A stretch of 64,000 nt of DNA from Acidobacteria bacterium bin61 (GTDB taxonomy: Bacteria > Acidobacteriota > Vicinamibacteria > Marinacidobacterales > SMYC01), in assembly GCA_963578475.1 (NCBI GenBank), contig CAUZCL010000003.1, positions 27,027-91,026 of the forward strand. Reading direction: 5' to 3'. Position 1 is the stretch's first letter; every line of letters starts with the position of its first letter. Positions 3,343 to 35,169 of the stretch are shown in pieces. The notes beneath the pieces are model-generated. The model ran no database searches. It saw nothing but the letters and a program-made list of their open reading frames with translations, and had not been told where the DNA came from. Made by a program: the position numbers and the translations under genes.

Positions 3343-4323
3343 ATGACGACGAAACGATTGGGCATTGGTTTCAACGGCAGCGGGTTCATCACACGCTTTC
3401 ACATCGCGTCTTTTATCGCCGTGCGGGATGCGGATATCCGCGGGATATGGAGCCCGAACGCGGGGCGCGCGGCAGAAGCGGCGGCGCTCGGGAACGCCCG
3501 CGGCGTAGGCGAAGCGAAAGCCTTCCCGTCCATCGAAGCCATGGTGAAAGATCCATCCATCGATGCCATATGGATTTGCGGCCCGAATCACGAGCGTGTC
3601 GCCAACATGAAAGCCATCTTGGAAGCTCTCGGAAATGGCGGCGAGCTTCAAGGCGGCGGCGTCCTCAATGACATGATGTGCCATTCCATCGAGGCAGCAC
3701 GCTACCTGTTGACCGAGCCGGGCAAGCTACGCGAAAGCCTCAAAGCCAAGAAAGTCAGCGCGCAGATCGCCTGTATGAAATGGCAGCGGCCCGCCTATGT
3801 CGAGAAGCTGAAAGCTGCTTACGGAAGCGACGTCGACTACAGCACGAAGCCTTCGGAAGATTTCGCGCGTGCGATCGTGGAATATGAGGACGGGAACGGC
3901 GAGCCGCTCATCGTGGAAGCTACGACTTCGTGGAGCTATGTCGGCGCCGGACTTCGTCTGTCGATGGGGCTGCTCGGGCCGGAATATTCAATGAAGGTCA
4001 ATACGCTCGACACGGAACTGTCACTTTTCTTTAGCCACGACTCCGGGCAATCATCTGGCGAGGATCTCGTCGAGAAACAGAACGCGGAGCTCGGCCTCAT
4101 GCCCGTCGTCACCGACGAAGGCGCCTACGGCTATGTCGACGAGAACCGTCACATGGTTCAGTCGTTTCTGAAGAACCTACGTCCCGAAGAGACGTTCGAC
4201 GACGGGGTCGCGGTGACGGAGCTTCTCATGACCGCCTACAAGAGCGCTGAAATCGACGCGGCCGTCGAGCTCGAGGGCGCTTCACTCGATGAGTTTGTCC
4301 CCGCGGTCGCCCGCGGCGTGTGA
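3343..4323 (+). CDS. Gfo/Idh/MocA-family NAD(P)-dependent oxidoreductase
   Basis: 326 aa; N-terminal Rossmann region (LGIGFNGSGFITRFH...DAIWICGPNHERV) and a Gfo/Idh/MocA-like C-terminal alpha/beta domain. The region around the expected EKP motif looks atypical or shortened. Confidence 0.65.
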   Translation: MTTKRLGIGFNGSGFITRFHIASFIAVRDADIRGIWSPNAGRAAEAAALGNARGVGEAKAFPSIEAMVKDPSIDAIWICGPNHERVANMKAILEALGNGGELQGGGVLNDMMCHSIEAARYLLTEPGKLRESLKAKKVSAQIACMKWQRPAYVEKLKAAYGSDVDYSTKPSEDFARAIVEYEDGNGEPLIVEATTSWSYVGAGLRLSMGLLGPEYSMKVNTLDTELSLFFSHDSGQSSGEDLVEKQNAELGLMPVVTDEGAYGYVDENRHMVQSFLKNLRPEETFDDGVAVTELLMTAYKSAEIDAAVELEGASLDEFVPAVARGV

Positions 4324-4654
4324 AACCCTCGCGCCAGGAATCGCTGACTTGCCGCCATGAGGCGACTCACTAGTGAAAAACGATTTTCTCACCGCGTTGG
4401 GACACCAGCTCCCAGACATGTTCGAGGAGCAGCTCGCGCCTTTTGAGAAGGTGCTCACCTCGAGGCCATCAAGATATGGCGACACCGTTAGCGGAGCTCA
4501 TCGTCAGTGAATCCGACGAGCTTCTCCCACAAACGGCGATCCACTCGAACGATGCGATCGTCGAGAAGCTCGGGCACGAAGCTTCGGAGGCTTTCACACG
4601 GTCCAACGGGATTCGGCTAGAATCACGCGGACCATTATTCTGAGAGGATCGTCG

Positions 4655-5116
4655 ATGCTATCGACCATGGAGCTCATCGTCGCCCTGAAGGAGACCCCCC
4701 TCTTCTCCGCCGTCCGAGGGGAGGGCTTGAAGCGTATCTCCGACGCGATTCGGGAAACCCGGATTGCCAGCGGGGAACTCATTTTCGCCGAGCAGGATCG
4801 TGGCGACGAGATGTACATGATCCATTCGGGGAAGGTCTCTCTTTTTCGCGGCGACGCCCCCTCGGAGAAGCTTCTCGCGACGCTCGACAAGGGAGCTTAC
4901 TTCGGAGAGATGGCTATTATCGACGACCAACCGCGACCGACCTCCGCGAGGGCCGAAGAGAGCTCGACTTTGCTCGTGCTTCGCAAGCGAGATTTTCGTG
5001 TCGCGGTGCTCGATTATCCAGACATCGCTTTCGCGATGTTCGAAGAGTTCGCTCGGCGTCTACGCCAAGCGAACGAGCAGATTTATTCTCAGTCGGAGAA
5101 ACATGGAGATTCGTAA
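4655..5116 (+). CDS. Stand-alone cyclic-nucleotide-binding (CAP/Crp effector domain) protein
   Basis: 153 aa; cNMP-binding signature GELIFAEQDRGDEMYMIHSGKV...GAYFGEMAII...RSARA. RBS-like GAGAGGA upstream. The 3' end overlaps the next gene by 14 nt. Confidence 0.8.
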   Translation: MLSTMELIVALKETPLFSAVRGEGLKRISDAIRETRIASGELIFAEQDRGDEMYMIHSGKVSLFRGDAPSEKLLATLDKGAYFGEMAIIDDQPRPTSARAEESSTLLVLRKRDFRVAVLDYPDIAFAMFEEFARRLRQANEQIYSQSEKHGDS

Positions 5117-7922
5117 AGCGTTCAACATCCTCGAGATGGACCAGCGCCCCATCCTGCTCCTCGGGGCGCTCCACTTCGTGATGGCGGCCGCGCACACGCT
5201 TTTCGATATCGGTATAACCTCGCTCTTGGTGGCCAATCTCGGCGCGGAGGTGCTGCCGCAAGTCTATGTTGGAAGCGCGCTGCTTCTCATCTGCGCCAGC
5301 CTGTTCATCATTCCCGTTATCGATTTCCTGGATCGATTCAAGCTCTTCGCATCGACGTTGATCCTTTTCGCCGCCGTCCTGGCGCTCACACACCATCAGG
5401 GCGAACAAGCTCCCGGTCTCATCTATCGCGGGCTCTACGTTCTTTCCTATCTGATGAAGAGCTTGCTCTTCCTGCAGTTCTGGCTAATCGCGGGAGACGT
5501 TTGTGACCTCCGGCAAGCGAAGCGCTTGTTCCCCATCTTGCTCGGCTTCAGCCTCGCAGGAGGAGTGACCGCCTCGGTGGCGGCCTCCGTGCTGCTGCGA
5601 TGGATGGCCACGGAAGATCTTCTATTGACCGCCGCTGTGCTGCTCGTCGCCGCCCTAATTCCGACGCGCAGCGTTGCCCGACAATACGGAGCTGCTATCG
5701 AACGGCCTAGGATCCCAGGACAATTCAAGGTCAGGGACTCCCTCTATCGCCTTCGGTCCGACTTTCGCATCTCGCTCTCATCGCCGCTCCTGAGAAACAT
5801 CTCGGCATCGTTTCTGCTGTTCGCCTTTCTGGCACAAGTGCTCGATTTCCTCATGGGTAAAGCAGCAAGTGTCCGATTCACTGAGCTCGGGGCAGTGGAC
5901 GTAGAAGCGCTCACCTCCTTCTATGCTCTGTTGAACGGCGTTGTCATCGGAGTCGGCGCCCTGGTGCAACTTCTCGCCGCCAACCGGCTGATCTCATCGC
6001 TCGGCGTGACCCGAGGGCAACTTGCAGCTCCGCTCGCGGTCCTCGCAGGCTTCGGTTCGATAGCGGTGGTGCTGATCGCCACTGGCAACGCGCTCGGGCC
6101 GGCATTCTTTTTCGCCGTGCTCGCAAGCCGGGGCGTCCAAAAGGTGCTACGGATCTCCATCTATCGGACCTCTACTGACCTCGTCTTCAATCCGATTCCC
6201 GCCGGTCGCCGTGGCCGTGCCAAAGCCTTCAAGGAAACGGTCATCGAGCCCGCGGGCGTGCTGATGGGAGGACTCTTCCTGCTTGCGAGCGGCTTGTTCG
6301 AGCTGCGCACACTTGTCATCGTAGCGCTCGCGCTGTCGGGAGCGTTTCTTTTCGTCTCCCTTCGACTGCACTCCGCATACCTGGCAAGCCTGGTCGCGAT
6401 CCTCGAAGAAAAGAGCCGGCTTCGCTTTACGTTCTCATCGAGCGATACACCACAAGCGACGCTACAGACGCGGCATAGCCAGGATCTCTCGGACCTCGAG
6501 AGAGCTCTGAACGACGACGAAGTCTCGGTGAGACTCCTCGGCGTCGAAGTAGCTGCCGAGCTCCGCGATCCCGCCGCTGCACCACTTCTCGTGGACGGCG
6601 TGCGCCGGGAGCAGGATCCACGGGTGCGTGCCACGATGGTGGCGGCACTCGGTCGGTTGCTGCGCAAGAACGAGGAATCGACGCGGCTCCTGGAACCGGC
6701 ACTCCAGGATAGTGACCCGAGGGTACGAGCCAACGGGATCGAAGCACTCGCCGAAATCGGCCTGGCACACCCTGAGTCCTTTCTCCCGTCCTTCGAGACG
6801 GATCCGGAAGGGAGAATCCGCGCCAACGCGGCGGTCGCCTATAGTCGCCTCGATCCGGAGCGCGGAACCGACTATGGCCGCGAAATTCTCGAAGAGATGT
6901 ACCGGACCGAAGAGGAGGCGCACCAACGATCGGCGCTCTACGGGCTGGGCGAGGTCGGCGATGCCCGCTCCATTCGGCTCCTCGACGAAGCGCTCGTCGA
7001 CGAGAGCATAGCGGTCCGTCGTCAAGCTATTCTCAGTCTGGCCCAAGCCGGTCGGCGCGAGGCGATAAAACGTCTCGTTCGATTCATGGAGGAAGGCGAC
7101 GGCACCACGCGCCGGCTCGCCGCACGGGCTCTTGCCAGTTCGGGAGAAGCGGCAGTCGAGCCGCTCCTTCTTTCACTCTGGGGCTCCGAAGTCGAGGTGC
7201 GGCGCCACGCGATCGAGGCACTGGACGGGGTCGGCTCGACCCGCGCGGACCAGGCACTTCTCCAGATCCTCTCACTCGAAGCCGAGCAGTCCTACTACGA
7301 CCTCGTGCGCTTGCAGAAGCTCCGAACGCTTTCCCAGACGCCGGGTCTTCGCCTCGTATGCGACGCGCTCGCCGACCGCGTCAAGAGCGCCAAAGAGAAC
7401 ACTCTCGACGTTCTGGACAGCGTCTTCGGTGAGCGCGACGGCATGCGCCTCATTCTCGGAAATCTCACTCACCCCGAGCTCACCGTGCGCTCGAACGCCA
7501 TCGAGGCGCTCGAAGTGCGCGTGGACGCCGATGTTCTCGGCGGCATCCAGCCCCTCTTCGAGCACGCGAACCTGACCACCGTCGCCGAGCACGGCGGGAC
7601 GCTCTATGATCTTCCGAGCAAACAGCCGATCGAGGTGCTATTCGAGCTAGCCCACGATCCGTCCGGCTGGACTCGCGCCTGCGCCCTATACGCGCTCAGT
7701 GAGCTCGGGAGTCAAGAGGCGGTCCAGCAACTCGCACAGAAGATCAACGACCCCTATGAGCTGGCGCGCTTGAACGCCATCCAGGGGCTCGGCCGTCTCG
7801 CGTCGAAGAGCAGCCTCTCGATCCTGGAGCATATCGACAAGGGCAAGAACACGACCGCGAGCAAATGCGCAAAAGACGCCATCAAAAGCATCAGATCTCG
7901 CATCATCCTCGCAAACGATTAG
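5103..7922 (+). CDS. Polytopic transporter-like domain (MFS/TLC-like, about 10-12 TM) fused to a C-terminal HEAT/PBS-lyase repeat array
   Basis: In-frame ATG at 5103 (MEIRKAF...) inside the 974-aa ORF. The first about 430 aa are hydrophobic helices (ILLLGALHFVMAAAHTLFDIGITSLLVANLG...). The C-terminal about 500 aa contain repeated D-x-VR-xx-A-xx-AL-G HEAT-like units (DPRVRATMVAALG, DPRVRANGIEALA, SIAVRRQAILSLA, ...). Confidence 0.75.
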   Translation: MEIRKAFNILEMDQRPILLLGALHFVMAAAHTLFDIGITSLLVANLGAEVLPQVYVGSALLLICASLFIIPVIDFLDRFKLFASTLILFAAVLALTHHQGEQAPGLIYRGLYVLSYLMKSLLFLQFWLIAGDVCDLRQAKRLFPILLGFSLAGGVTASVAASVLLRWMATEDLLLTAAVLLVAALIPTRSVARQYGAAIERPRIPGQFKVRDSLYRLRSDFRISLSSPLLRNISASFLLFAFLAQVLDFLMGKAASVRFTELGAVDVEALTSFYALLNGVVIGVGALVQLLAANRLISSLGVTRGQLAAPLAVLAGFGSIAVVLIATGNALGPAFFFAVLASRGVQKVLRISIYRTSTDLVFNPIPAGRRGRAKAFKETVIEPAGVLMGGLFLLASGLFELRTLVIVALALSGAFLFVSLRLHSAYLASLVAILEEKSRLRFTFSSSDTPQATLQTRHSQDLSDLERALNDDEVSVRLLGVEVAAELRDPAAAPLLVDGVRREQDPRVRATMVAALGRLLRKNEESTRLLEPALQDSDPRVRANGIEALAEIGLAHPESFLPSFETDPEGRIRANAAVAYSRLDPERGTDYGREILEEMYRTEEEAHQRSALYGLGEVGDARSIRLLDEALVDESIAVRRQAILSLAQAGRREAIKRLVRFMEEGDGTTRRLAARALASSGEAAVEPLLLSLWGSEVEVRRHAIEALDGVGSTRADQALLQILSLEAEQSYYDLVRLQKLRTLSQTPGLRLVCDALADRVKSAKENTLDVLDSVFGERDGMRLILGNLTHPELTVRSNAIEALEVRVDADVLGGIQPLFEHANLTTVAEHGGTLYDLPSKQPIEVLFELAHDPSGWTRACALYALSELGSQEAVQQLAQKINDPYELARLNAIQGLGRLASKSSLSILEHIDKGKNTTASKCAKDAIKSIRSRIILAND

Positions 7923-7969: not shown

Positions 7970-8782
7970 CTAGATATGGCCTAGGTCCATCTGCTTGACC
8001 GCGTAGTCGCAGGCGCGGGCGGTCAACATCATGTAGGCGATCGACGGATTGACGCAGGATGAGGACGTCATACACGCGCCATCGGTTACGAAGAGGTTCG
8101 GGATGTCGTGGGCCTGATTGTGGCCGTTCAGGACCGACGTCGCCGGGTCGCGCCCCATCCGCGCCGTACCCATCTCGTGGATCGTGAGTCCCGGTGGGTT
8201 GTCTTCAACAAAGCTCGAGACGTCTTTGGCGCCCGAGGCTTCGAGCATTTCCGCCGCGGTCACAGCGGCATCTTCGAGAAGCGCGCGCTTGTTCTCTGAC
8301 CAGGCCATGTGGACGCGAAGCGCCGGAATACCCCATTTGTCCTTGGCGACCGGATCGATCGCCACGTAGTTGTTCTCGCTCGGTAAGCACTCGCCGAGGT
8401 CTTTGTCGAAAGTGTACGGGTTCTCGTCATCGTTGACGAAGAACTTGCTCGACCAATCGTCACAGGCATAGCAGTTCTTTTGAATCGGCTGCGTGCTCGA
8501 TTGACGCGCACGATTGCGGTGCCTTCGGTACGGGAGCTGCCACGGTTGCACATGCTCGACATAGTCCTGCTCGGGGCTCGTGGGACGCCCCGCTTCGAGA
8601 ACGAGTGTCTCGAGCCCTTTCTCGGTTAGCTCCTTGGCGGCGTAGCCGCCGCTGATGCCCGAGCCTACTATAATTGCGTCGTACTCTTTGCGCTGCGCAG
8701 AAATACCATCGTTAAACCTCGATGTTGCGGCCAACGTTATGGATGGGAGTGCAACCTTCATAAGAGCCGGGAAAGACGACAT
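7970..8782 (-). CDS. GMC-family FAD oxidoreductase, unusually short (possible internal deletion)
   Basis: 270 aa; FAD-binding N-terminus DAIIVGSGISGGYAAKE and GMC C-terminal signature HEMGTARMG...NLFVTDGACMTSSSCVNPSIAYMMLTARA. Typical members are about 550 aa, so the middle substrate domain appears absent. Confidence 0.55.
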   Translation of the reverse strand: MSSFPALMKVALPSITLAATSRFNDGISAQRKEYDAIIVGSGISGGYAAKELTEKGLETLVLEAGRPTSPEQDYVEHVQPWQLPYRRHRNRARQSSTQPIQKNCYACDDWSSKFFVNDDENPYTFDKDLGECLPSENNYVAIDPVAKDKWGIPALRVHMAWSENKRALLEDAAVTAAEMLEASGAKDVSSFVEDNPPGLTIHEMGTARMGRDPATSVLNGHNQAHDIPNLFVTDGACMTSSSCVNPSIAYMMLTARACDYAVKQMDLGHI

Positions 8783-9182
8783 GTCCGAGCTCCTGCTCCA
8801 TCCTGATCTCCGATGTGTAGTAGCCCCAGAGCGTGAGCCATTTCATCACACTGAAAAACGGCTGGTCCGCGGGAGAATCGGACGTCGCGACCAGACTCCG
8901 GCTCGTCGCGCGCTCCTCTTGCTCCGCGAGCGCGGCTTCCTCAGCTCTCTCCAGGAGCGCGACCTGCTCGGCCGGATCGTGCTCGACGAACGGTGTTTCG
9001 TCACCGTCGAGCTCCGCCAAACCTTTTCGGAAGCTCGATCGTTCTTCGTCCGTGAACCACTCGGTCAGCATGACGTCGATGAACTCGTTCACGCGCGCAG
9101 CTTTGGCCCCTGGCGTGTCGGTCTCGGGGATGATGAGCTCCGCCATCACGGTAACCATCTCGTTCTGCCTCGTCCAGGTCAA
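8712..9182 (-). CDS. Gluconate 2-dehydrogenase subunit-3 family protein (small subunit partner of the GMC oxidoreductase)
   Basis: 156 aa; AELIIPETDTPGAKAARVNEFIDVML matches the subunit-3 family core. Begins at TTG and lacks the usual Tat signal. The upstream ORF (9183-9534) is in another frame, joined across a C5/G5 run at 9233-9237. Confidence 0.6.
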   Translation of the reverse strand: MTWTRQNEMVTVMAELIIPETDTPGAKAARVNEFIDVMLTEWFTDEERSSFRKGLAELDGDETPFVEHDPAEQVALLERAEEAALAEQEERATSRSLVATSDSPADQPFFSVMKWLTLWGYYTSEIRMEQELGHVVFPGSYEGCTPIHNVGRNIEV

Positions 9183-14242: not shown

Positions 14243-14746
14243 TTACTCGGTGGCTTGGCCGCCTAGGCGCGCCGAAACTTTAGCGAAGCGCTTGCCTCGC
14301 CGAAGCTTTAGCGAAGGCGGGCGCCACTCACCCGTAGCGACGAGCGTGAAAGAGGGAGGTGGCGGCGATGCGTGCACGTATATCTCGACTTCGAGCGAAA
14401 GCTCTTCCAAGTGCAGTGTCTCTCGCCAGTAGTCGTAAGGTGCTTCGAGATCGCCGAGCTCTTGAAGCTTGTCAGCGTCCACTTCGAAAAGCTCGACCCA
14501 AATTGGGTGGCGCTTCGACGACGCGACGAGCATCGGATATTCGCTGTTCTCGTACATCTCGAACGGAAGATCGACGAACCGACTGTGCACAGGCAAGGCA
14601 CCTTTCAGGTACAACTCGTGGTTGAAATAGCCGACCTTCAACGTGCCGTAAATGGCAACGAGGGTTAAAGGCCTGCCTGTTGCAACACGAAAAGAGCCTC
14701 GCGCATCATCAATAGCCGAGCGAATGCGTTTCGCGCCGCACGTCAC
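14243..14746 (-). CDS. Gamma-glutamylcyclotransferase-like (AIG2/GGCT fold) protein; start codon uncertain
   Basis: IYGTLKVGYFNHELYL matches the GGCT/AIG2 YGTL...N motif. The annotated ATG overlaps the upstream GGT gene by 37 nt, so the true start may be internal. Confidence 0.55.
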   Translation of the reverse strand: MTCGAKRIRSAIDDARGSFRVATGRPLTLVAIYGTLKVGYFNHELYLKGALPVHSRFVDLPFEMYENSEYPMLVASSKRHPIWVELFEVDADKLQELGDLEAPYDYWRETLHLEELSLEVEIYVHASPPPPSFTLVATGEWRPPSLKLRRGKRFAKVSARLGGQATE

Positions 14747-16559
14747 CGGCGGCTATCATCACGCCCGTTTCCGGATCCCGATAGGTGACCGTGAGCGCCC
14801 CCGTTCGCCAGTTCCAAAGTCCCCACGACTGCACGTCGTGACCTTTCACGCGCAGCGCCTGGAAAGTCGCCGTCGGGATGCGCGCCTCGACGCGTAGCAC
14901 GCCCGGGGTCGCGTTGACCTCGCTCCCGGTGCCGGGAAAGTTGTAGCTTCCGAAGCGCGGCTGGTCGACCGCATGCTCCGGCGACATGCCCCACACGCTG
15001 ACGTTCAAGAAAGTCTGAAGCATCGCCTGCACTTGCTGGTCGCCACCTGGCGTCGAGAGACCCATGAAGGGCTTCCCGTCTTTCATGACGAGGATCGGGT
15101 TGTTGGTGTTGCGCGGACGCTTCTTGGGTGTCATGACATTCGCAAGGCTCGCGTCGAGATTGAGCTGGCCCATCCGGCCGCCGAGACCGAATCCCCAGTT
15201 GGGGACGAGTGGCGTTAGCATGTGGCCGTCGCTCTCGGTCATGGAGAATACATTTCCTTCCGCATCCATCACGTTGACAGAAGTCGTGTCCGGAAGAGGG
15301 AGTCCCGCTTGCCCAGAGCCGAGCCCAGCAAAGACTTCGGGCGAGTCGGTAGCGACGTTTTCCATGTTCGCGGGATCGCCCCAGGGCGGCATGTCTTCGA
15401 AAGCCTTGTCGCGATCGACAAGCTCCGCGCGCTTGCGGCCATAAGCCTTCGTATAGAGCCCGCGCGGCACGTCCACGAAATCGGGGTCGCCGATATATTT
15501 GTGGCTGTCGGCCATCGCGAGCTCGATAACTTGCGAAAGTATGTGGATGTACTCAGCGGTGTTGTAGCCGAGCGCTTCGACGTCGAAGCTTTCGAGCATG
15601 TTCAAGATCAGGATGAGGCGAGGTCCTTGAGACCATCCATCACAAACATAGACGTCATAGCCGCGAAAGGTCGTATGGAGCGGCTCCATCCACCGACTCT
15701 CATAGCTCGCAAGATCGTCGTAGCGCACGAGACCGTCATCGAAGCCTTCATAGAGCGCCGCCGCCGCGCGGGCAGGCTCGCCTTTGTAGAACGCGTCCCT
15801 GGATGCGCGGATCGCCTCGGAGCGGGACGCACCCTTCTCGAGCGCTTTCACTTCGGCATCCATCATGTAGCGGATGAGCCGTCCCAGGTCTTTGTTGACC
15901 ATCAAGTCTCCGAGCTTCTGATTGCCGACGCCGTTCGGAAACCAAAACTCGACGTTGTAAGGAAACGGGGTAATCGCATCCTGCTGCGTATCGAGAAGTC
16001 CCTTCTGGTGCTTGTAGAGGTGGTAGCCCCCCTCGGCGATCTCGAGGGCGGGAGCCACAGCGTCGCGAAAGCTGAACGTTCCGTATCGATCGAGTGTAGA
16101 AAGCCACACGTCGACATCGGCAGGAATGAGGGCGATGCTCGTCGGCGTTTTTCCGTGCTCGAGGAAATGCGCGAGCGTTGCTTTCGCGGGTGTTTTCCCC
16201 GCCCCCACCCGGGTTATGACGCGCCCTTCAGAAGCGCTATAGAGGATCAGAGGCGCGACGCCAGTCCACCCGGCATAGCCCATCTTCATGACTTTCAAAG
16301 CCATCGCGGCCGTTACGCCGGCATCGAAGGCGTTGCCGCCTTTCTTGAAGGCCTCCATACCGGCGAGCGTCGACAGGTAGTGCCCGGTCGAGATGACTCC
16401 GCGCGTGCCCATGACGCGAGGGCGCATCGCCTCGAGGCTGTCATTGTCGTAGACGTGCCCGTAGGAGGCGAACGGGCCGAGCGTCTCGAGAAGCTTGCGC
16501 TCCTGCGAAGCGACCGTCGTCGCCAGAAGCACCATCCCCAATAGCCATAGACGTTTCAT
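14709..16559 (-). CDS. ggt: Gamma-glutamyltransferase (secreted)
   Basis: 616 aa; signal peptide MKRLWLLGMVLLATTVASQ. Catalytic Thr region (TGH...) and small-subunit GGDQQVQAMLQTFLNV motif. Confidence 0.88.
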   Translation of the reverse strand: MKRLWLLGMVLLATTVASQERKLLETLGPFASYGHVYDNDSLEAMRPRVMGTRGVISTGHYLSTLAGMEAFKKGGNAFDAGVTAAMALKVMKMGYAGWTGVAPLILYSASEGRVITRVGAGKTPAKATLAHFLEHGKTPTSIALIPADVDVWLSTLDRYGTFSFRDAVAPALEIAEGGYHLYKHQKGLLDTQQDAITPFPYNVEFWFPNGVGNQKLGDLMVNKDLGRLIRYMMDAEVKALEKGASRSEAIRASRDAFYKGEPARAAAALYEGFDDGLVRYDDLASYESRWMEPLHTTFRGYDVYVCDGWSQGPRLILILNMLESFDVEALGYNTAEYIHILSQVIELAMADSHKYIGDPDFVDVPRGLYTKAYGRKRAELVDRDKAFEDMPPWGDPANMENVATDSPEVFAGLGSGQAGLPLPDTTSVNVMDAEGNVFSMTESDGHMLTPLVPNWGFGLGGRMGQLNLDASLANVMTPKKRPRNTNNPILVMKDGKPFMGLSTPGGDQQVQAMLQTFLNVSVWGMSPEHAVDQPRFGSYNFPGTGSEVNATPGVLRVEARIPTATFQALRVKGHDVQSWGLWNWRTGALTVTYRDPETGVMIAAGDVRRETHSLGY

Positions 16560-18245: not shown

Positions 18246-18625
18246 TTCGGTCCCTGTAACGGACGCTCCGCGAGCAGGTCCGGGTGTTCGGGCGGAAGCT
18301 CGTGCATCATCACGAGACACTCGCTCAAGTTCGGCGCGAGCTCTTCGTTAAGCCAGTAACTAGAGGCGCCAATATAGCCGCGGTGAAAGGCGTTGATGGA
18401 GAGCGCGTTCTTTCTGTCCAGAGGCTCGGCGTGAAAGCGCACCGACTGCGCGAAAACGTGCCGGAGAAGCTCCGTCGGAACGCCGTGATTCGTGAGATAG
18501 AAAAAGCCGACCTGCTCGCAGGCCACGTTCAGAGCTCGGGCGACGTCCTCCGGGTCGCGGGACATGTCGAGGATCGGCAGCCGGTCTTTCGGAATCTCGA
18601 TGGCCGAACGTGTCATCGACCGCAT
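18185..18625 (-). pseudogene. 2OG-Fe(II) oxygenase N-terminal (DIOX_N) fragment; catalytic C-terminal domain missing
   Basis: IPILDMS...ACEQVGFFYLTNHGVP...LQGPNQWPE is the canonical non-haem dioxygenase N-terminal region, ending just before where the HxD...H jelly-roll domain should start. No continuation in any frame. Confidence 0.45.
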
Positions 18626-18655
18626 CTCAGCATTGCGTGTGGTACGCTCCGCGCC

Positions 18656-19696
18656 ATGCTCCGTGGCACCCTTTTCGCCGTTCTCGTTACTAGCATTTCC
18701 TCGACTGTTACGGGCCAAAGTCACAAAATTATTTTCGACACCGACTTTATTTTGCCGCCGGGCGATGACGGCCTCGCGCTTCTCCTCGCGCTCCAATCTC
18801 CGGAGCTCGAGATCCTCGCCATCACGACGGTCGCCGGCAACGCGAGCGTCGAGCGCGCGACCGCGGAAGTCCTGTGGCTACTCGAGTCCGTCGGGCGCAC
18901 GGAGATTCCCGTTTATCAAGGCGCGGATATGCCTTGGGTTCACGAGCGAAGCGACTTTGCCGTCGACAATTACGGGAAGTGGTACTCGAACGACGCTCCT
19001 CCCCCGCCCCCTGGCGGCCACGCGCAGAAGAAAGTCGAAAAAGAGACGGCCGTCGAGCTCCTCGTCCGTTCGGTCCTGGCAAGTCCGAACGAAATCACCA
19101 TCGTCGCGATTGGGCCGATGACGAACATCGCCACCGCCATCCGGCAAAACGCCGCCTTCTCCGAGAGCGTCCGCGAGCTCGTCATCATGGGAGGCGCGGT
19201 CGCCTCGCTCCAAGACGGCGCCGGGAACATCACGCCGAACGCCGAGTTCAATTTCTGGGTCGACCCCGAAGCGGCTCGTGTCGCCCTACGCTCCGGTATC
19301 CCCATCATGCTCTCCCCGCTCAACGTCTCGCGCAAAACCGCTTTGAGCAAAGAGTGGTACGAGAAAATGGTTGCCTCGAACACGGCCATAACACGGCTCC
19401 TGAGGATGACGATGGGGCCGAGGTTCGAGCGCGATCCGGATCGCGTCTGGCTCATGTACGACCAAGTCGCCGTGGGAAGTTTGATCGACCCGACGCTCGT
19501 TGTGACCGAAGAGCTTTTCGTCGACGTCGACGATAACCGAGGCGTGAGCTATGGGACCTCCGTGGGCGGCACCGAGGTTTGGCCAGGCGCCGAAGGCGCC
19601 CAAAAAATAAAAGTTCAGCATGAACTCGACTGGCGCCGTTTCATAGAGATGTTCGTCGAAAGAATGAACGCGCCCGTCAGGGCTCGAACCCATTAA
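18656..19696 (+). CDS. Inosine-uridine-preferring nucleoside hydrolase family protein (secreted)
   Basis: In-frame ATG at 18656 (MLRGTLFAVLVTSISS signal). IIFDTDFILPPGDDGLALLLAL contains the DxDxxxDD nucleoside hydrolase fingerprint. Confidence 0.8.
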   Translation: MLRGTLFAVLVTSISSTVTGQSHKIIFDTDFILPPGDDGLALLLALQSPELEILAITTVAGNASVERATAEVLWLLESVGRTEIPVYQGADMPWVHERSDFAVDNYGKWYSNDAPPPPPGGHAQKKVEKETAVELLVRSVLASPNEITIVAIGPMTNIATAIRQNAAFSESVRELVIMGGAVASLQDGAGNITPNAEFNFWVDPEAARVALRSGIPIMLSPLNVSRKTALSKEWYEKMVASNTAITRLLRMTMGPRFERDPDRVWLMYDQVAVGSLIDPTLVVTEELFVDVDDNRGVSYGTSVGGTEVWPGAEGAQKIKVQHELDWRRFIEMFVERMNAPVRARTH

Positions 19697-33357: not shown

Positions 33358-33507
33358 CTACTTTCGGCTTTCTGCTCCGGCTACGTTTCTTGGTTTTCAC
33401 GGTTTCCGTTTTGTGAGTCAATATTAAAAAAACGTAGCGGAAAGATGATGGCGACACGGATCGTGGGAGTGTTATTCTCCGACAGCCCTCTTCCGAAAGG
33501 AGCCTGT

Positions 33508-35169
33508 ATGACGATTCCAGCCCTTCGCCTTGCTCTCATATTGAGTCTCGTCGCCTCGACTGCGCTCGCGGGTGACCGCCCGGCCAAAGGCGCGACGCTC
33601 GGCCGCTCGCCCGTGCTCGCCACGCACGGGATGGTGGCTACCAGCCAGCCGCTCGCGGCAGCCGCGGGGCTCCGGGTGCTCCAGGAGGGCGGCAACGCAA
33701 TTGACGCCGCCATCGCTACAGCCGCGGTGCTGAACGTCGTTGAGCCGATGATGTGCGGGATTGGCGGCGATCTCTTCGCGCTCGTCTATCACGCCGAGTC
33801 CCAAAAGCTCTACGGGCTGAACGGGACCGGGCGCGCCGGCTCCCTCGCCACCGCGGAAAAGATGCGCCAAGACGGCTACGAGCGCATGCCCAGCTCTGGA
33901 ATCTATGCGGTCACCGTTCCGGGAGCGCTCGACGGCTGGGAGCAGCTACGCTCGCGCTTCAGCAGCAAAAGCCTCGCGGAGCTCTTGGAGCCCGCCATCG
34001 GCTACGCTGAGAATGGGTTTCCCGTCTCCCAAATCATTGCCACCGACTGGAAAGTGGCCGAAGAGAAACTTGCACGCCATCCGGCGGCCGCCGCGAATTA
34101 CCTCATCGGCGGACGCGCGCCACGGCACGGTGAGCTATTCAAATCGCCCGACCTCGCCAAGACGTTCCGCATCATCGCGGACGAAGGACCGGACGCCTTT
34201 TACCGCGGGACCATCGCCCGAAAGATTACCGAGTTCATCATGAGTGAAGGTGGCTTCGTCACCTATGACGACATGGCTGGCCACTCCTCGACTTGGGTCG
34301 ACCCGATCTCGACGACATATAAAGACGCGACCATTTATCAAATCCCGCCGAACTCTCAAGGCTATGTCGCACTCGAAATGCTCAACATTCTCGAAAGCTT
34401 CGACGTCGCGTCGCTCGAGCATAATTCCGCAGAATATCTACACCTCCTCATCGAAGCGAAGAAGCTCGCTTTCGCGGACAGAAACGCCTATCTCGCGGAC
34501 CCCGACAAAGCCGACGTGCCGCTCGACAAGTTGCTGTCGAAGCAATACGCGTCGGAGCGGGCAAAGCTGATCGACCGCGAGCGCGCGGCCGGCGAAGTTC
34601 GTCCCGGTATGATCGACCCGACCGAAACCGTTTACTTGACGGTCGTCGACGAGGATCGCAACGTCGTGTCGCTCATCTACAGCGTCTTTTCGGCCTTCGG
34701 CTCCGGGCTCGTCGTTCCAGGCACAGGCATCGCGCTTCAAAACCGTGGTACCGGATTCTCTCTCGAGCCCGGCCATCCGAACGAGCTCGCGCCGGGAAAG
34801 CGCGCGCTTCACACGAACATGCCGGGAATGGTTTTCAAAGACGGCAAACCGTGGTTGAGCTACGGGGTGATGGGCGGCGACATGCAGCCACAGGGCCATA
34901 CCCAGGTGCTCTTGAACATGATCGAGTTCGGGATGAATGTCCAGGAGGCAGGCGAGATGGCGCGCTTTCGCCATTTCTCCGATCGCGCAGTCGGCTTCGA
35001 GTCCGGCATCGGCATCGAAGTTCTTCAGGCGCTCATCGAAAAAGGACACCGACCACGAATCTCGATGGGCGCCTATGGGGGCTATCAAGCCATCATGATC
35101 GACTGGGAGCAAGGTGTTTTGCTCGGCGGATCAGATCTGCGCAAAGACGGCGCAGCCATGGGCTACTGA
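33508..35169 (+). CDS. Gamma-glutamyltransferase family protein (second paralog, secreted)
   Basis: Start at MTIPALRLALILSLVASTALA signal. MCGIGGDLFALVY and small-subunit motifs YGVMGGDMQPQGHTQVLLNM. Confidence 0.85.
   Translation: MTIPALRLALILSLVASTALAGDRPAKGATLGRSPVLATHGMVATSQPLAAAAGLRVLQEGGNAIDAAIATAAVLNVVEPMMCGIGGDLFALVYHAESQKLYGLNGTGRAGSLATAEKMRQDGYERMPSSGIYAVTVPGALDGWEQLRSRFSSKSLAELLEPAIGYAENGFPVSQIIATDWKVAEEKLARHPAAAANYLIGGRAPRHGELFKSPDLAKTFRIIADEGPDAFYRGTIARKITEFIMSEGGFVTYDDMAGHSSTWVDPISTTYKDATIYQIPPNSQGYVALEMLNILESFDVASLEHNSAEYLHLLIEAKKLAFADRNAYLADPDKADVPLDKLLSKQYASERAKLIDRERAAGEVRPGMIDPTETVYLTVVDEDRNVVSLIYSVFSAFGSGLVVPGTGIALQNRGTGFSLEPGHPNELAPGKRALHTNMPGMVFKDGKPWLSYGVMGGDMQPQGHTQVLLNMIEFGMNVQEAGEMARFRHFSDRAVGFESGIGIEVLQALIEKGHRPRISMGAYGGYQAIMIDWEQGVLLGGSDLRKDGAAMGY

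What the first reader, a model, noticed from the sequence alone, without database searches (positions are those of the whole stretch)
4655..7922. Coupled cNMP-binding protein and transporter-HEAT repeat fusion: a candidate cyclic-nucleotide-gated membrane module
A stand-alone CAP-type cyclic-nucleotide-binding protein (153 aa) overlaps by 14 nt the start of a 940-aa protein. That protein's N-terminal half is a polytopic MFS/TLC-like transporter domain and its C-terminal half is an array of HEAT/PBS-lyase repeats. Translational coupling suggests stoichiometric co-function. A transporter with a large cytoplasmic HEAT scaffold and a cNMP sensor is not a characterised system. Directly upstream there may be a small frameshifted ORF (4373-4643).
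Basis: partly seen in the sequence, partly recalled or inferred. Interest (0 to 1): 0.6.

Follow-up and report, generated by a model that had tools for sequence, protein, structure and literature searches.

The report
Divergent NTT–HEAT transporter with cNMP-binding partner
[quoted passage not shown] The pairing was described by comparative genomics in 2017 and has never been tested experimentally, so this is a real but only moderately novel variant.

Summary
A 153-aa cNMP-binding protein (4655-5116) overlaps by 14 nt the ATG (5103) of a 939-aa protein. That protein has a 12-helix MFS domain (aa 1-442) and a HEAT solenoid of about 28 helices (aa 452-938).

The membrane domain scores below Pfam's TLC threshold. 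However, its AlphaFold model matches the solved NTT1 ATP/ADP translocators best. A profile-profile comparison also links it to Pfam-TLC-positive NTT-HEAT proteins (E=3e-39).

The gene pair is conserved. 19 of 20 distinct Vicinamibacteria loci (43-97% identity) carry the cNBD gene directly upstream, and 16 keep exactly the 14-nt overlap. Single-chain NTT-HEAT-cNBD fusions are common (28 of 48 sampled relatives).

The architecture is not new. Major, Embley & Williams (2017) described NTT-HEAT fusions, adjacent downstream cNBD genes and triple fusions, all with unknown function. Three things differ here:
- The cNBD gene lies upstream and encodes a single domain.
- The NTT domain is strongly diverged.
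- The window clade has a proline at a phosphate-binding-cassette position.

The proposed frameshifted ORF at 4373-4643 is not a conserved gene.

The most likely function is a transporter of nucleotide-like anions regulated by cyclic nucleotide. This is inferred, not shown.

The parts
4618..4654 (+). Conserved 5' region of the operon: a -10-like TAGAAT (4618-4623) and a Shine-Dalgarno GAGAGGA (4642-4648) ahead of the cNBD ATG
   Evidence: This is the only part of the 4324-4654 intergenic region conserved in L006 and L007. TATAAT-like boxes sit just upstream of the cNBD start in many orthologous loci. The consensus promoter scan found no full sigma-70 site, so promoter function is inferred.
4655..5116 (+). 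Gene for a stand-alone single-domain cyclic-nucleotide-binding protein (153 aa, no DNA-binding domain)
   Evidence: PF00027 E=1.4e-21. CRP/FtrB NCBIfam models score far below their cut-offs. PDB relatives are the cNBDs of PKG, PKA-R, CRP, MloK1 and SthK. The gene is conserved directly upstream of the transporter gene in 19 of 20 distinct loci. dN/dS is 0.10-0.20.
4901..4954 (+). Phosphate-binding cassette of the cNBD (F83-A100: FGEMAIIDDQPRPTSARA)
   Evidence: G84, E85 and R94 are canonical. Residue 95 is Pro in the window, L005, L006 and L007, whereas all other orthologues have S, T or A.
5095..5116 (+). Translational-coupling junction: GGAG (5095-5098), the transporter ATG at 5103 and the cNBD stop codon ending at 5116 (14-nt overlap)
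   Evidence: Sequence read. The same 14-nt overlap, with an ATG or TTG start, is found in 16 loci spanning 43-97% identity.
5103..7922 (+). Gene for the 939-aa NTT-HEAT fusion protein
   Evidence: About 84 near-full-length or partial relatives at 43-90% identity. Full-length AlphaFold model has pLDDT 81.7. dN/dS is 0.21-0.23.
5103..6428 (+). N-terminal 12-TM MFS-fold domain of the NTT/TLC family (aa 1-442), highly diverged
   Evidence: AF2 pLDDT 88.5, pTM 0.87. The Foldseek top five hits are NTT1 structures 9j3n, 9j3m, 9j3l, 9j3j and 9j3o, with E 4e-10 to 4e-7 and TM up to 0.76. hhalign against TLC-positive NTT-HEAT proteins gives E=3.4e-39 over 416 columns. A mixed profile hits NTT1 at E=3e-33. 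Pfam TLC itself scores only 5.8 bits.
6408..6479 (+). Low-confidence flexible linker between the membrane domain and the HEAT domain (aa 436-459)
   Evidence: pLDDT is below 50 in the full-length model, and the whole-protein pTM is only 0.52.
6456..7919 (+). C-terminal HEAT/PBS-lyase-like alpha-solenoid (aa 452-938): about 28 helices, with two long helices at 713-775
   Evidence: HEAT_2 E=3.4e-41, HEAT, HEAT_PBS. Secondary structure. PDB sequence relatives are alphaRep, CpcE/F, DOHH and YibA. The family-wide conserved motifs RSNAIEALE (E801) and GWTRACA (W856) persist even in distant fused relatives.

Best explanation
The region is a two-gene operon, cNBD then NTT-HEAT, in a Vicinamibacteria-class Acidobacterium. 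The large protein is a divergent member of the NTT-HEAT branch of the nucleotide transporter (TLC/NTT, MFS-fold) family. It has twelve transmembrane helices, a flexible linker and a cytoplasmic HEAT solenoid.

The small protein is its dedicated partner, made in step with it through a conserved 14-nt termination-reinitiation overlap. [quoted passage not shown]

Proposed mechanism (inferred, not shown). The cNBD protein docks on the HEAT solenoid. Binding of a cyclic nucleotide changes how the HEAT-cNBD assembly contacts the basic cytoplasmic loops of the transporter (RQAKR between TM4 and TM5; ERRGRAK between TM10 and TM11). This switches on or off the transport of a nucleotide-like anionic substrate.

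Shown here: domain identities, fold, homology, conserved synteny and overlap, existence of fusions, and purifying selection. Inferred: physical docking, the identity of the ligand, the substrate, and the direction of transport.
For: -
- Homology to TLC-positive NTT-HEAT proteins covers both domains. P0085 matches at E=4e-44 with 95% coverage. Its TM domain passes Pfam TLC (30.5 bits against a cut-off of 21). hhalign of the TM domains gives E=3.4e-39.
- Charged intramembrane positions are shared with solved NTT1s. Window R350, D359, K374 and E378 align with K, E, K and D of 'KY..KEM..GKAAID'. The FW...AK[R/K] motif is also shared.
- The cNBD gene is directly upstream in 19 of 20 distinct loci, and the 14-nt overlap is kept in 16.
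- More distant relatives keep a cNBD of about 157 aa upstream (L032, 4-nt overlap; L031, with a TPR gene between).
- TLC-positive relatives have a cNBD gene overlapping the 3' end instead.
- 28 of 48 sampled relatives carry a fused cNBD. The order in the fusions is TM-HEAT-cNBD.
- The window cNBD is most similar to the C-terminal cNBD of fusion P0085 (E=6e-23).
- Both genes have dN/dS of 0.1-0.23.
- The same association and a similar hypothesis were published by Major et al. 2017 (PMC5381601).
Against: - No member of the NTT-HEAT clade has been characterised experimentally, so transport, substrate and regulation are all inference.
- The membrane domain fails the Pfam TLC threshold. A profile built only from orthologues finds no PDB sequence. 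Substrate specificity may therefore have changed.
- In the window clade the residue after the PBC arginine is proline. From general knowledge of PKA and CAP structures, this removes a backbone N-H that contacts the cyclic phosphate, so cNMP binding may be weak or lost.
- Some fused relatives have fully degenerate PBCs.
- One orthologue (L001, 65% identity) has no adjacent cNBD.
- The interdomain geometry is not predicted with confidence (pTM 0.52).
- No complex model could be made.
Confidence: 0.6

Rival explanations
1. The NTT-like domain no longer transports anything. The protein is a membrane-anchored HEAT scaffold, or a 'transceptor', that recruits other proteins, with the cNBD protein acting as a cNMP-dependent adaptor.
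For: The membrane domain is too diverged for Pfam TLC or for an orthologue-only profile to reach NTT1. HEAT solenoids are typical protein-protein scaffolds. Relatives sit in varied operons with TPR, STAS, a second NTT gene or glycosyltransferases.
Against: The 12-TM MFS fold is predicted with high confidence and resembles NTT1 in both the inward-open (9j3n) and outward-open (9j3o) states. Many polar and charged intramembrane residues are invariant across 30 orthologues (H24, H31, D35, R109, Q125, D248, N278, Q289, R350, R355, D359, N363, K377, E378). Four of them match charged positions of canonical NTTs. This pattern is expected for a substrate cavity.
Confidence: 0.15
2. Transporter and partner work together, but the small protein in this clade is not a cyclic-nucleotide sensor. 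It is either a constitutive subunit or binds a different ligand.
For: Pro95 replaces the S, T or A that follows the PBC arginine in the window, L005, L006 and L007. The two-cNBD fusions P0089, P0093 and P0095 lack the GE...R signature altogether. The CRP/FNR-type fold is known to bind non-nucleotide ligands in other families (general knowledge).
Against: G84, E85 and R94 are intact. The domain scores 76.7 bits against PF00027. All other orthologues, and the fusions P0085, P0086 and P0101, have canonical PR[S/T/A]A cassettes. Purifying selection is strong.
Confidence: 0.2
3. The two genes are merely co-transcribed neighbours with no functional link.
For: One orthologous locus (L001) lacks the cNBD gene.
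Against: The adjacency is conserved from 97% down to about 36% identity. The exact 14-nt overlap is kept in 16 loci. The same domains are repeatedly fused into one chain.
Confidence: 0.03
4. The HEAT half acts as a phycobilisome lyase or NblB-like protein, as database names for cyanobacterial relatives suggest.
For: Weak matches to NblB (93.5 bits), CpcE/F and HEAT_PBS.
Against: All these matches are far below the equivalog cut-offs (300, 220 and 330 bits). They reflect the generic repeat. The host is a non-photosynthetic Acidobacterium, and the domain is tethered to a transporter.
Confidence: 0.01

Closest known systems
NTT-HEAT and NTT-HEAT-cNBD proteins, with adjacent cNBD genes (Major, Embley & Williams 2017, Genome Biol Evol, PMC5381601)
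   Same: An N-terminal NTT-type membrane domain is fused to C-terminal HEAT repeats, with a cNBD encoded in the same operon or fused. These proteins are found in free-living bacteria and their function is unknown. The window protein aligns over both domains with TLC-positive members.
   Different: The cNBD gene is upstream, not downstream. It encodes one domain (153 aa) rather than the two-domain 309-374-aa proteins seen in L027, L029 and L030. It overlaps the transporter start by a conserved 14 nt. The NTT domain is diverged below the Pfam TLC threshold. The clade is Vicinamibacteria (Acidobacteriota), of which that study had only 3 sequences. Monophyly with their clade was not tested by phylogeny.
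Canonical NTT/TLC nucleotide transporters (Chlamydia pneumoniae NTT1, Arabidopsis AtNTT1; PDB 9j3n, 9j3o, 9j3j, 9j3l, 9j3m)
   Same: These are the best structural matches (Foldseek E 4e-10, TM 0.74-0.76). They share the FW...AK[R/K] and [K/R]..[E/D]..P..K..[D/E] motifs.
   Different: Identity is only 13-16%. Canonical NTTs have no HEAT domain and no cNBD partner. The window protein's direct HMM score is below threshold. ATP/ADP exchange is unproven here.
Membrane transport proteins regulated by cyclic nucleotides through a cNBD (MloK1 and SthK channels; eukaryotic CNG/HCN channels and SLC9C1, the latter from general knowledge)
   Same: A cytoplasmic cNBD is coupled to a membrane transport domain. 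The MloK1 and SthK cNBDs are sequence relatives of the window cNBD (E about 1e-10).
   Different: In those proteins the cNBD is covalently attached to a channel or exchanger through a C-linker. Here it is a separate polypeptide, and a HEAT solenoid of about 490 aa lies between the transporter and the position where the cNBD is fused in relatives.
CRP/FNR transcription factors (CAP)
   Same: The effector-domain fold is the same. CRP-family PDB entries match at E 1e-15 to 1e-12.
   Different: The window protein has no helix-turn-helix DNA-binding domain. CRP and FtrB equivalog models score 41-43 bits against cut-offs of 211-266. It is therefore not a transcription factor.

Membership tests
NTT / TLC nucleotide transporters (Pfam PF03219; TCDB 2.A.12) | Match to the family HMM at or above the curated threshold | tested here: not met
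   PF03219 scores E=7, 5.8 bits against a cut-off of 21. No NCBIfam hit.
NTT / TLC nucleotide transporters (Pfam PF03219; TCDB 2.A.12) | 12-TM MFS fold closest to solved NTT structures | tested here: met
   AF2 model has pLDDT 88.5 and 12 TM helices. The Foldseek top five hits are all NTT1 entries, ahead of generic MFS proteins.
NTT / TLC nucleotide transporters (Pfam PF03219; TCDB 2.A.12) | Demonstrable sequence homology to bona fide family members | tested here: met
   hhalign of the orthologue-only profile against TLC-positive proteins gives prob 99.96 and E=3.4e-39. A mixed profile hits 9j3n at E=3e-33. The orthologue-only profile alone finds nothing in PDB.
NTT / TLC nucleotide transporters (Pfam PF03219; TCDB 2.A.12) | Conservation of the nucleotide-binding residues seen in the NTT1-ATP structures | not tested
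   The paper describing the structures is not in the library, and model coordinates cannot be inspected. Only the shared charged positions R350, D359, K374 and E378 were noted.
NTT / TLC nucleotide transporters (Pfam PF03219; TCDB 2.A.12) | Nucleotide transport activity | not testable with these tools
   Needs uptake assays.
NTT-HEAT (+cNBD) module of Major et al. 2017 | An NTT-type membrane domain followed in the same chain by HEAT repeats | tested here: met
   45 of 48 sampled relatives of the TM domain carry HEAT_2.
NTT-HEAT (+cNBD) module of Major et al. 2017 | A cNBD encoded immediately downstream or fused to the C-terminus | tested here: not met
   A cNBD is present and linked, but it lies upstream. 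The downstream arrangement is seen in L027, L029 and L030, and fusions. The association is met; the position is not.
NTT-HEAT (+cNBD) module of Major et al. 2017 | Membership of the single monophyletic NTT-HEAT clade | not tested
   No phylogeny including canonical NTTs was built. Whole-length homology to TLC-positive NTT-HEAT proteins makes membership likely.
Cyclic-nucleotide-binding domain (PF00027) | HMM match above threshold | tested here: met
   76.7 bits against a cut-off of 27.5.
Cyclic-nucleotide-binding domain (PF00027) | Intact phosphate-binding cassette (G-E ... R-[S/T/A]) | tested here: inconclusive
   G84, E85 and R94 are present. Position 95 is Pro in the window clade and S, T or A in all other orthologues.
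Cyclic-nucleotide-binding domain (PF00027) | Binding of cAMP or cGMP | not testable with these tools
   Needs ITC, DSF or structures.
CRP/FNR transcription factors | C-terminal helix-turn-helix DNA-binding domain | tested here: not met
   The protein has 153 aa and only the cNBD is matched. CRP and FtrB models are far below their cut-offs.
Phycobilisome lyase / NblB HEAT proteins | Equivalog-level match | tested here: not met
   NblB scores 93.5 against 300, CpcF 34 against 220, and CpcE 33 against 330.

The most novel reading that the evidence does not exclude
The upstream-cNBD/NTT-HEAT pair could be a true second-messenger-gated nucleotide porter in free-living bacteria. For example, it could be a cAMP/cGMP-controlled valve that imports environmental nucleotides or exports ATP or cyclic nucleotides, with the HEAT solenoid acting as a mechanical transducer between a detachable sensor subunit and an MFS gate. 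That would give the whole uncharacterised NTT-HEAT clade, including the Chlamydia trachomatis and oomycete members, its first mechanism. It would also be a mode of MFS regulation without precedent.
Probability: 0.2. Interest if true: 0.65.

Novelty: new variant of a known kind. Interest (0 to 1): 0.35.

Why it matters
NTT-HEAT proteins are widespread. The membrane domain alone has 3545 relatives at the 50%-identity cluster level, and the family includes members in Chlamydia trachomatis, cyanobacteria and oomycetes (PMC5381601). Yet none has a known substrate or regulatory mechanism.

The Vicinamibacteria subfamily offers a naturally split system. The sensor is a separate 153-aa protein made by translational coupling, so sensor and transporter could be expressed, titrated and mutated independently.

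Natural variation also supplies ready-made comparison material:
- the canonical 'PRS' cassette versus the 'PRP' cassette;
- paralogues linked to an EAL gene versus paralogues without one.

In itself, however, the finding mainly re-discovers a published architecture in a new lineage with a permuted gene order.

Tried and rejected
- Direct family assignment of the N-terminal 455 aa failed with Pfam, NCBIfam and PDB phmmer. An orthologue-only profile against PDB also found nothing. The link had to be made through intermediates, profile-profile comparison and fold.
- The first related-loci run, using the diverse alignment A1, had no conserved stretch to search with. It was repeated with the orthologue alignment A2.
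- I searched for the paper on the NTT1 cryo-EM structures, to map the ATP-binding residues. It is not in the library.
- I searched for functional work on NTT-HEAT and on Synechocystis slr0593. Nothing was found beyond the 2017 survey and two papers that cite it.
- The small ORF at 4373-4643 was rejected as a gene. The tested piece has no family hit, the region is absent from L006 and L007, and the 97%-identical L005 carries frame-breaking indels.
- An Rfam scan of 4200-5300 found nothing. The sigma-70 consensus scan found no full promoter, and terminator-like hits were at the chance level.
- I looked for an EAL gene, or a second copy of either gene, in the window. There is none.
- A PBS-lyase/NblB function was rejected because the scores are far below the cut-offs.
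- AlphaFold-Multimer modelling of the cNBD with the HEAT domain was not possible with the tools. Single-chain jobs return no coordinates or PAE, so modelling a natural fusion would not have shown the interface.
Full report

Yes. The + strand carries a 153-aa ORF at 4655-5116. A long ORF, open from GTG 4998 and with an ATG at 5103, ends at 7922. From the ATG the product is 939 aa, and the ATG lies 14 nt before the end of the upstream stop codon. A GGAG sits 5-8 nt upstream of that ATG (5095-5098).

The small protein matches PF00027 (cNMP_binding) at E=1.4e-21 and has nothing else, in particular no HTH domain. The C-terminal half of the large protein matches HEAT_2 (E=3.4e-41), HEAT and HEAT_PBS.

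The N-terminal 455 aa give no significant hit in Pfam (TLC E=7, 5.8 bits against a cut-off of 21), NCBIfam or PDB sequences.

**2. What is the N-terminal half?**

AlphaFold2, using a 46-sequence alignment, gives a confident model (pLDDT 88.5, pTM 0.87). It has twelve long transmembrane helices in a 6+6 arrangement, with an amphipathic helix in the central loop.

Foldseek against the PDB ranks five entries of the NTT1 ATP/ADP translocators first. These are Chlamydia pneumoniae 9j3n and 9j3o and Arabidopsis 9j3j, 9j3l and 9j3m, with E 4e-10 to 4e-7 and TM-score up to 0.76. Generic MFS transporters follow at E of about 1e-6 or weaker.

Sequence homology is reached through intermediates:
- The window protein hits P0085 at E=4e-44 over 95% of its length. 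P0085's membrane domain passes Pfam TLC (30.5 bits).
- A profile built only from Vicinamibacteria orthologues aligns with a profile of ten TLC-positive NTT-HEAT proteins at probability 99.96%, E=3.4e-39, over 416 columns.
- A mixed profile hits NTT1 at E=3e-33.
- The orthologue-only profile does not reach NTT1 on its own.

The alignments show shared signatures. One is FW...AK[R/K]LF at TM4-TM5. The other is in the TM10-TM11 segment, where window R350, D359, K374 and E378 align with K, E, K and D of the canonical 'KY..KEM..IPL..GKAAID' motif.

The domain is thus a very divergent NTT/TLC-type MFS transporter domain. The full-length model (pLDDT 81.7, pTM 0.52) shows a disordered linker (aa 436-459) and a solenoid of about 28 helices from 452 to 938.

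**3. Are the two genes partners?**

A search of 5.8 billion proteins found about 84 near-full-length or partial relatives at 43-90% identity. Nearly all come from Acidobacteriota/Vicinamibacteria MAGs. A scan of GTDB representative genomes gave 22 loci, among them 'Candidatus Marinacidobacterales' and a 97%-identical relative, SMYC01000237.1.

tblastn and ORF clustering show a homologue of the cNBD gene immediately upstream in 19 of 20 distinct loci. The exception is L001, whose protein is 65% identical.

In 16 loci, spanning 43-97% identity, the overlap is exactly 14 nt. The downstream start is ATG in the window clade and TTG in most others. In several loci the downstream reading frame is closed until 24-30 nt before that start. 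This rules out the equivalent of GTG 4998. Such a fixed overlap, with weak TTG starts, fits termination-reinitiation coupling; this is an inference.

The pattern extends further out. P0107 (45% identity in the TM domain) has a 158-aa cNBD gene upstream with a 4-nt overlap. P0108 (36%) has a 157-aa cNBD gene, then a TPR gene, then the NTT-HEAT gene. The cNBDs of these loci share the N-terminal MLSxMExIxALKxxPLF..GEGLKR motif.

Both genes evolve under purifying selection, with dN/dS of 0.10-0.23.

**4. Fusions**

The distant hits P0085, P0086, P0089, P0093, P0095 and P0101 carry the membrane domain, the HEAT domain and one or two cNBDs in one chain, in that order.

A full HMMER scan of 1.84 billion cluster representatives with the membrane domain alone found 3545 relatives at E<=1e-3 and 1079 at E<=1e-10. 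Most are 850-1230 aa long. Of 48 sampled long relatives, 45 have HEAT_2, 28 have a fused cNBD and 26 pass a TLC match.

The window cNBD is most similar to the C-terminal cNBD of P0085 (E=6e-23). TLC-positive NTT-HEAT loci (L027, L029, L030) instead have a two-domain cNBD gene overlapping the 3' end of the NTT-HEAT gene. They often have a stand-alone NTT gene upstream as well.

**5. What is known?**

Major, Embley & Williams (2017; PMC5381601) reported exactly this family:
- NTT-HEAT fusions that are monophyletic and widespread in bacteria, including Chlamydia trachomatis and cyanobacteria, and also present in oomycetes;
- NTT-HEAT genes 'immediately followed' by a cNBD gene;
- NTT-HEAT-cNBD triple fusions.

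They stated that the function is unknown and suggested that cAMP sensing might tune ATP uptake. Later literature in the library only cites this work.

The architecture itself is not new. Three things differ here:
- The cNBD gene lies upstream, encodes a single domain and keeps a fixed 14-nt overlap.
- The NTT domain is extremely diverged.
- The lineage is Vicinamibacteria; that study had only 3 acidobacterial sequences.

**6. The sensor**

Most orthologues have a canonical phosphate-binding cassette, FGEMAIID..PR[S/T/A]A[S/T]A. The window, L005, L006 and L007 have PR-P-[T/N/A]-SARA. G84, E85 and R94 are kept, but residue 95 is proline.

From general knowledge of PKA and CAP complexes, the backbone amide at this position contacts the cyclic phosphate. 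Binding may therefore be weakened or altered in this clade. Some two-cNBD fusions have completely degenerate cassettes. Whether cAMP or cGMP is the ligand cannot be decided; the closest PDB relatives include both PKG and PKA/CRP domains.

**7. Surroundings**

Only the last ~40 nt before the cNBD ATG are conserved among close relatives. They contain a TAGAAT at 4618-4623 and a GAGAGGA at 4642-4648.

The stretch holding the proposed frameshifted ORF (4373-4643) is alignable only in L005, where it carries 1-nt indels. It is replaced by unrelated sequence in L006 and L007. It is not a conserved gene. No Rfam family matches the region.

Flanking genes in the window are not conserved partners. They are ilvB/ilvN-like genes, a GFO/IDH/MocA oxidoreductase, and GMC oxidoreductase plus gluconate-2-dehydrogenase subunit 3 on the opposite strand.

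In 14 of the 20 loci a divergent degenerate-GGDEF/EAL gene precedes the cNBD gene. This is absent from the window clade and from the window itself.

**8. Mechanism**

MFS topology puts both termini in the cytoplasm. The HEAT solenoid and the signal-less cNBD protein are therefore cytoplasmic (inference).

The most economical model has three steps. The cNBD docks on the HEAT domain, at or near the position it occupies in the fusions. A cyclic nucleotide changes this assembly. The change is relayed to the transporter's conserved basic cytoplasmic loops and gates the transport of a nucleotide-like anion.

Invariant polar and charged intramembrane residues argue that a substrate cavity is maintained. 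The substrate, the direction of transport, the ligand and the docking are not shown.

Rival readings are a scaffold or transceptor without transport, a partner that does not sense cNMP in this clade, and mere co-transcription. They are scored in their own section.

**9. Verdict**

It is a new variant (upstream split sensor, divergent NTT domain) of an already published but functionally unexplored module. Interest is moderate to low for the finding itself. The family as a whole remains an open question.

Noticed in passing
L002 3868-5307; also L003, L008, L009, L011-L016, L019, L021, L022, L024 (about 0.3-0.9 kb upstream of the cNBD gene, opposite strand): A divergently transcribed EAL-domain gene of 447-479 aa in L002 and L003 precedes the cNBD gene in 14 of 20 orthologous loci. 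Its N-terminal half looks like a degenerate GGDEF domain ('YGDTF'). It is missing from the window clade, from L001 and from the whole window. This may indicate c-di-GMP/cNMP cross-talk, or it may simply be inherited synteny.
   Followed up: partly
L024 (OZ240210.1), L025 (CBDCYI010000004.1), L026 (OZ250169.1), L022: Genomes that hold an intact copy of the pair also hold decayed second copies. These have a premature stop in the cNBD gene and an NTT-HEAT gene reduced to fragments (for example residues 1-106 plus 770-937). This points to two paralogous clades, one of which is often being lost. Long-read assembly errors cannot be excluded for the small frameshifts.
   Followed up: partly
L027, L029 (stand-alone NTT gene upstream of NTT-HEAT); L028 (STAS gene overlapping the start of NTT-HEAT, then an 831-aa NTT protein); L032 (two GT4 glycosyltransferase genes overlapping the 3' end); L031 (TPR gene between the cNBD and NTT-HEAT genes): Distant NTT-HEAT operons swap or add partners: a second NTT, STAS, TPR or glycosyltransferases. 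This suggests a modular regulatory and transport system. The substrate might differ between branches.
   Followed up: no
window 7970-8782 (-) and 8712-9182 (-): The GMC-oxidoreductase ORF is only 270 aa. It has the N-terminal FAD-binding motif and the GMC_oxred_C domain, but the middle part usual for this family appears to be missing. It lies next to a gluconate-2-dehydrogenase subunit-3 gene that it overlaps. It may be a truncated gene or a pseudogene.
   Followed up: no
window 3343-4323 (+): In the GFO/IDH/MocA oxidoreductase ORF, the Pfam alignments of the N- and C-terminal domains both stop short at the domain junction. This suggests that a short internal stretch is missing.
   Followed up: no
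L010, L013, L017 (7-12 nt upstream of the cNBD start codon); window 4618-4623: TATAAT-like -10 boxes lie very close to the cNBD start codon in several orthologous loci, which would give leaderless or near-leaderless mRNAs. The window clade instead has TAGAAT about 30 nt upstream plus a Shine-Dalgarno sequence.
   Followed up: no
window 18284-19696 (+); 14709-16559 (-) and 33445-35169 (+): There is an inosine-uridine nucleoside hydrolase with an N-terminal extension of about 150 aa, and two gamma-glutamyltranspeptidase genes. The rest of the window looks like ordinary chromosomal metabolism (GlnRS, S9 peptidases, TctA, a rhomboid-TPR protein).
   Followed up: no
P0137 (2129 aa), P0160 (2154 aa): Two relatives of the membrane domain are more than 2100 aa long, far longer than NTT-HEAT-cNBD fusions. 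Their extra domains were not examined.
   Followed up: no
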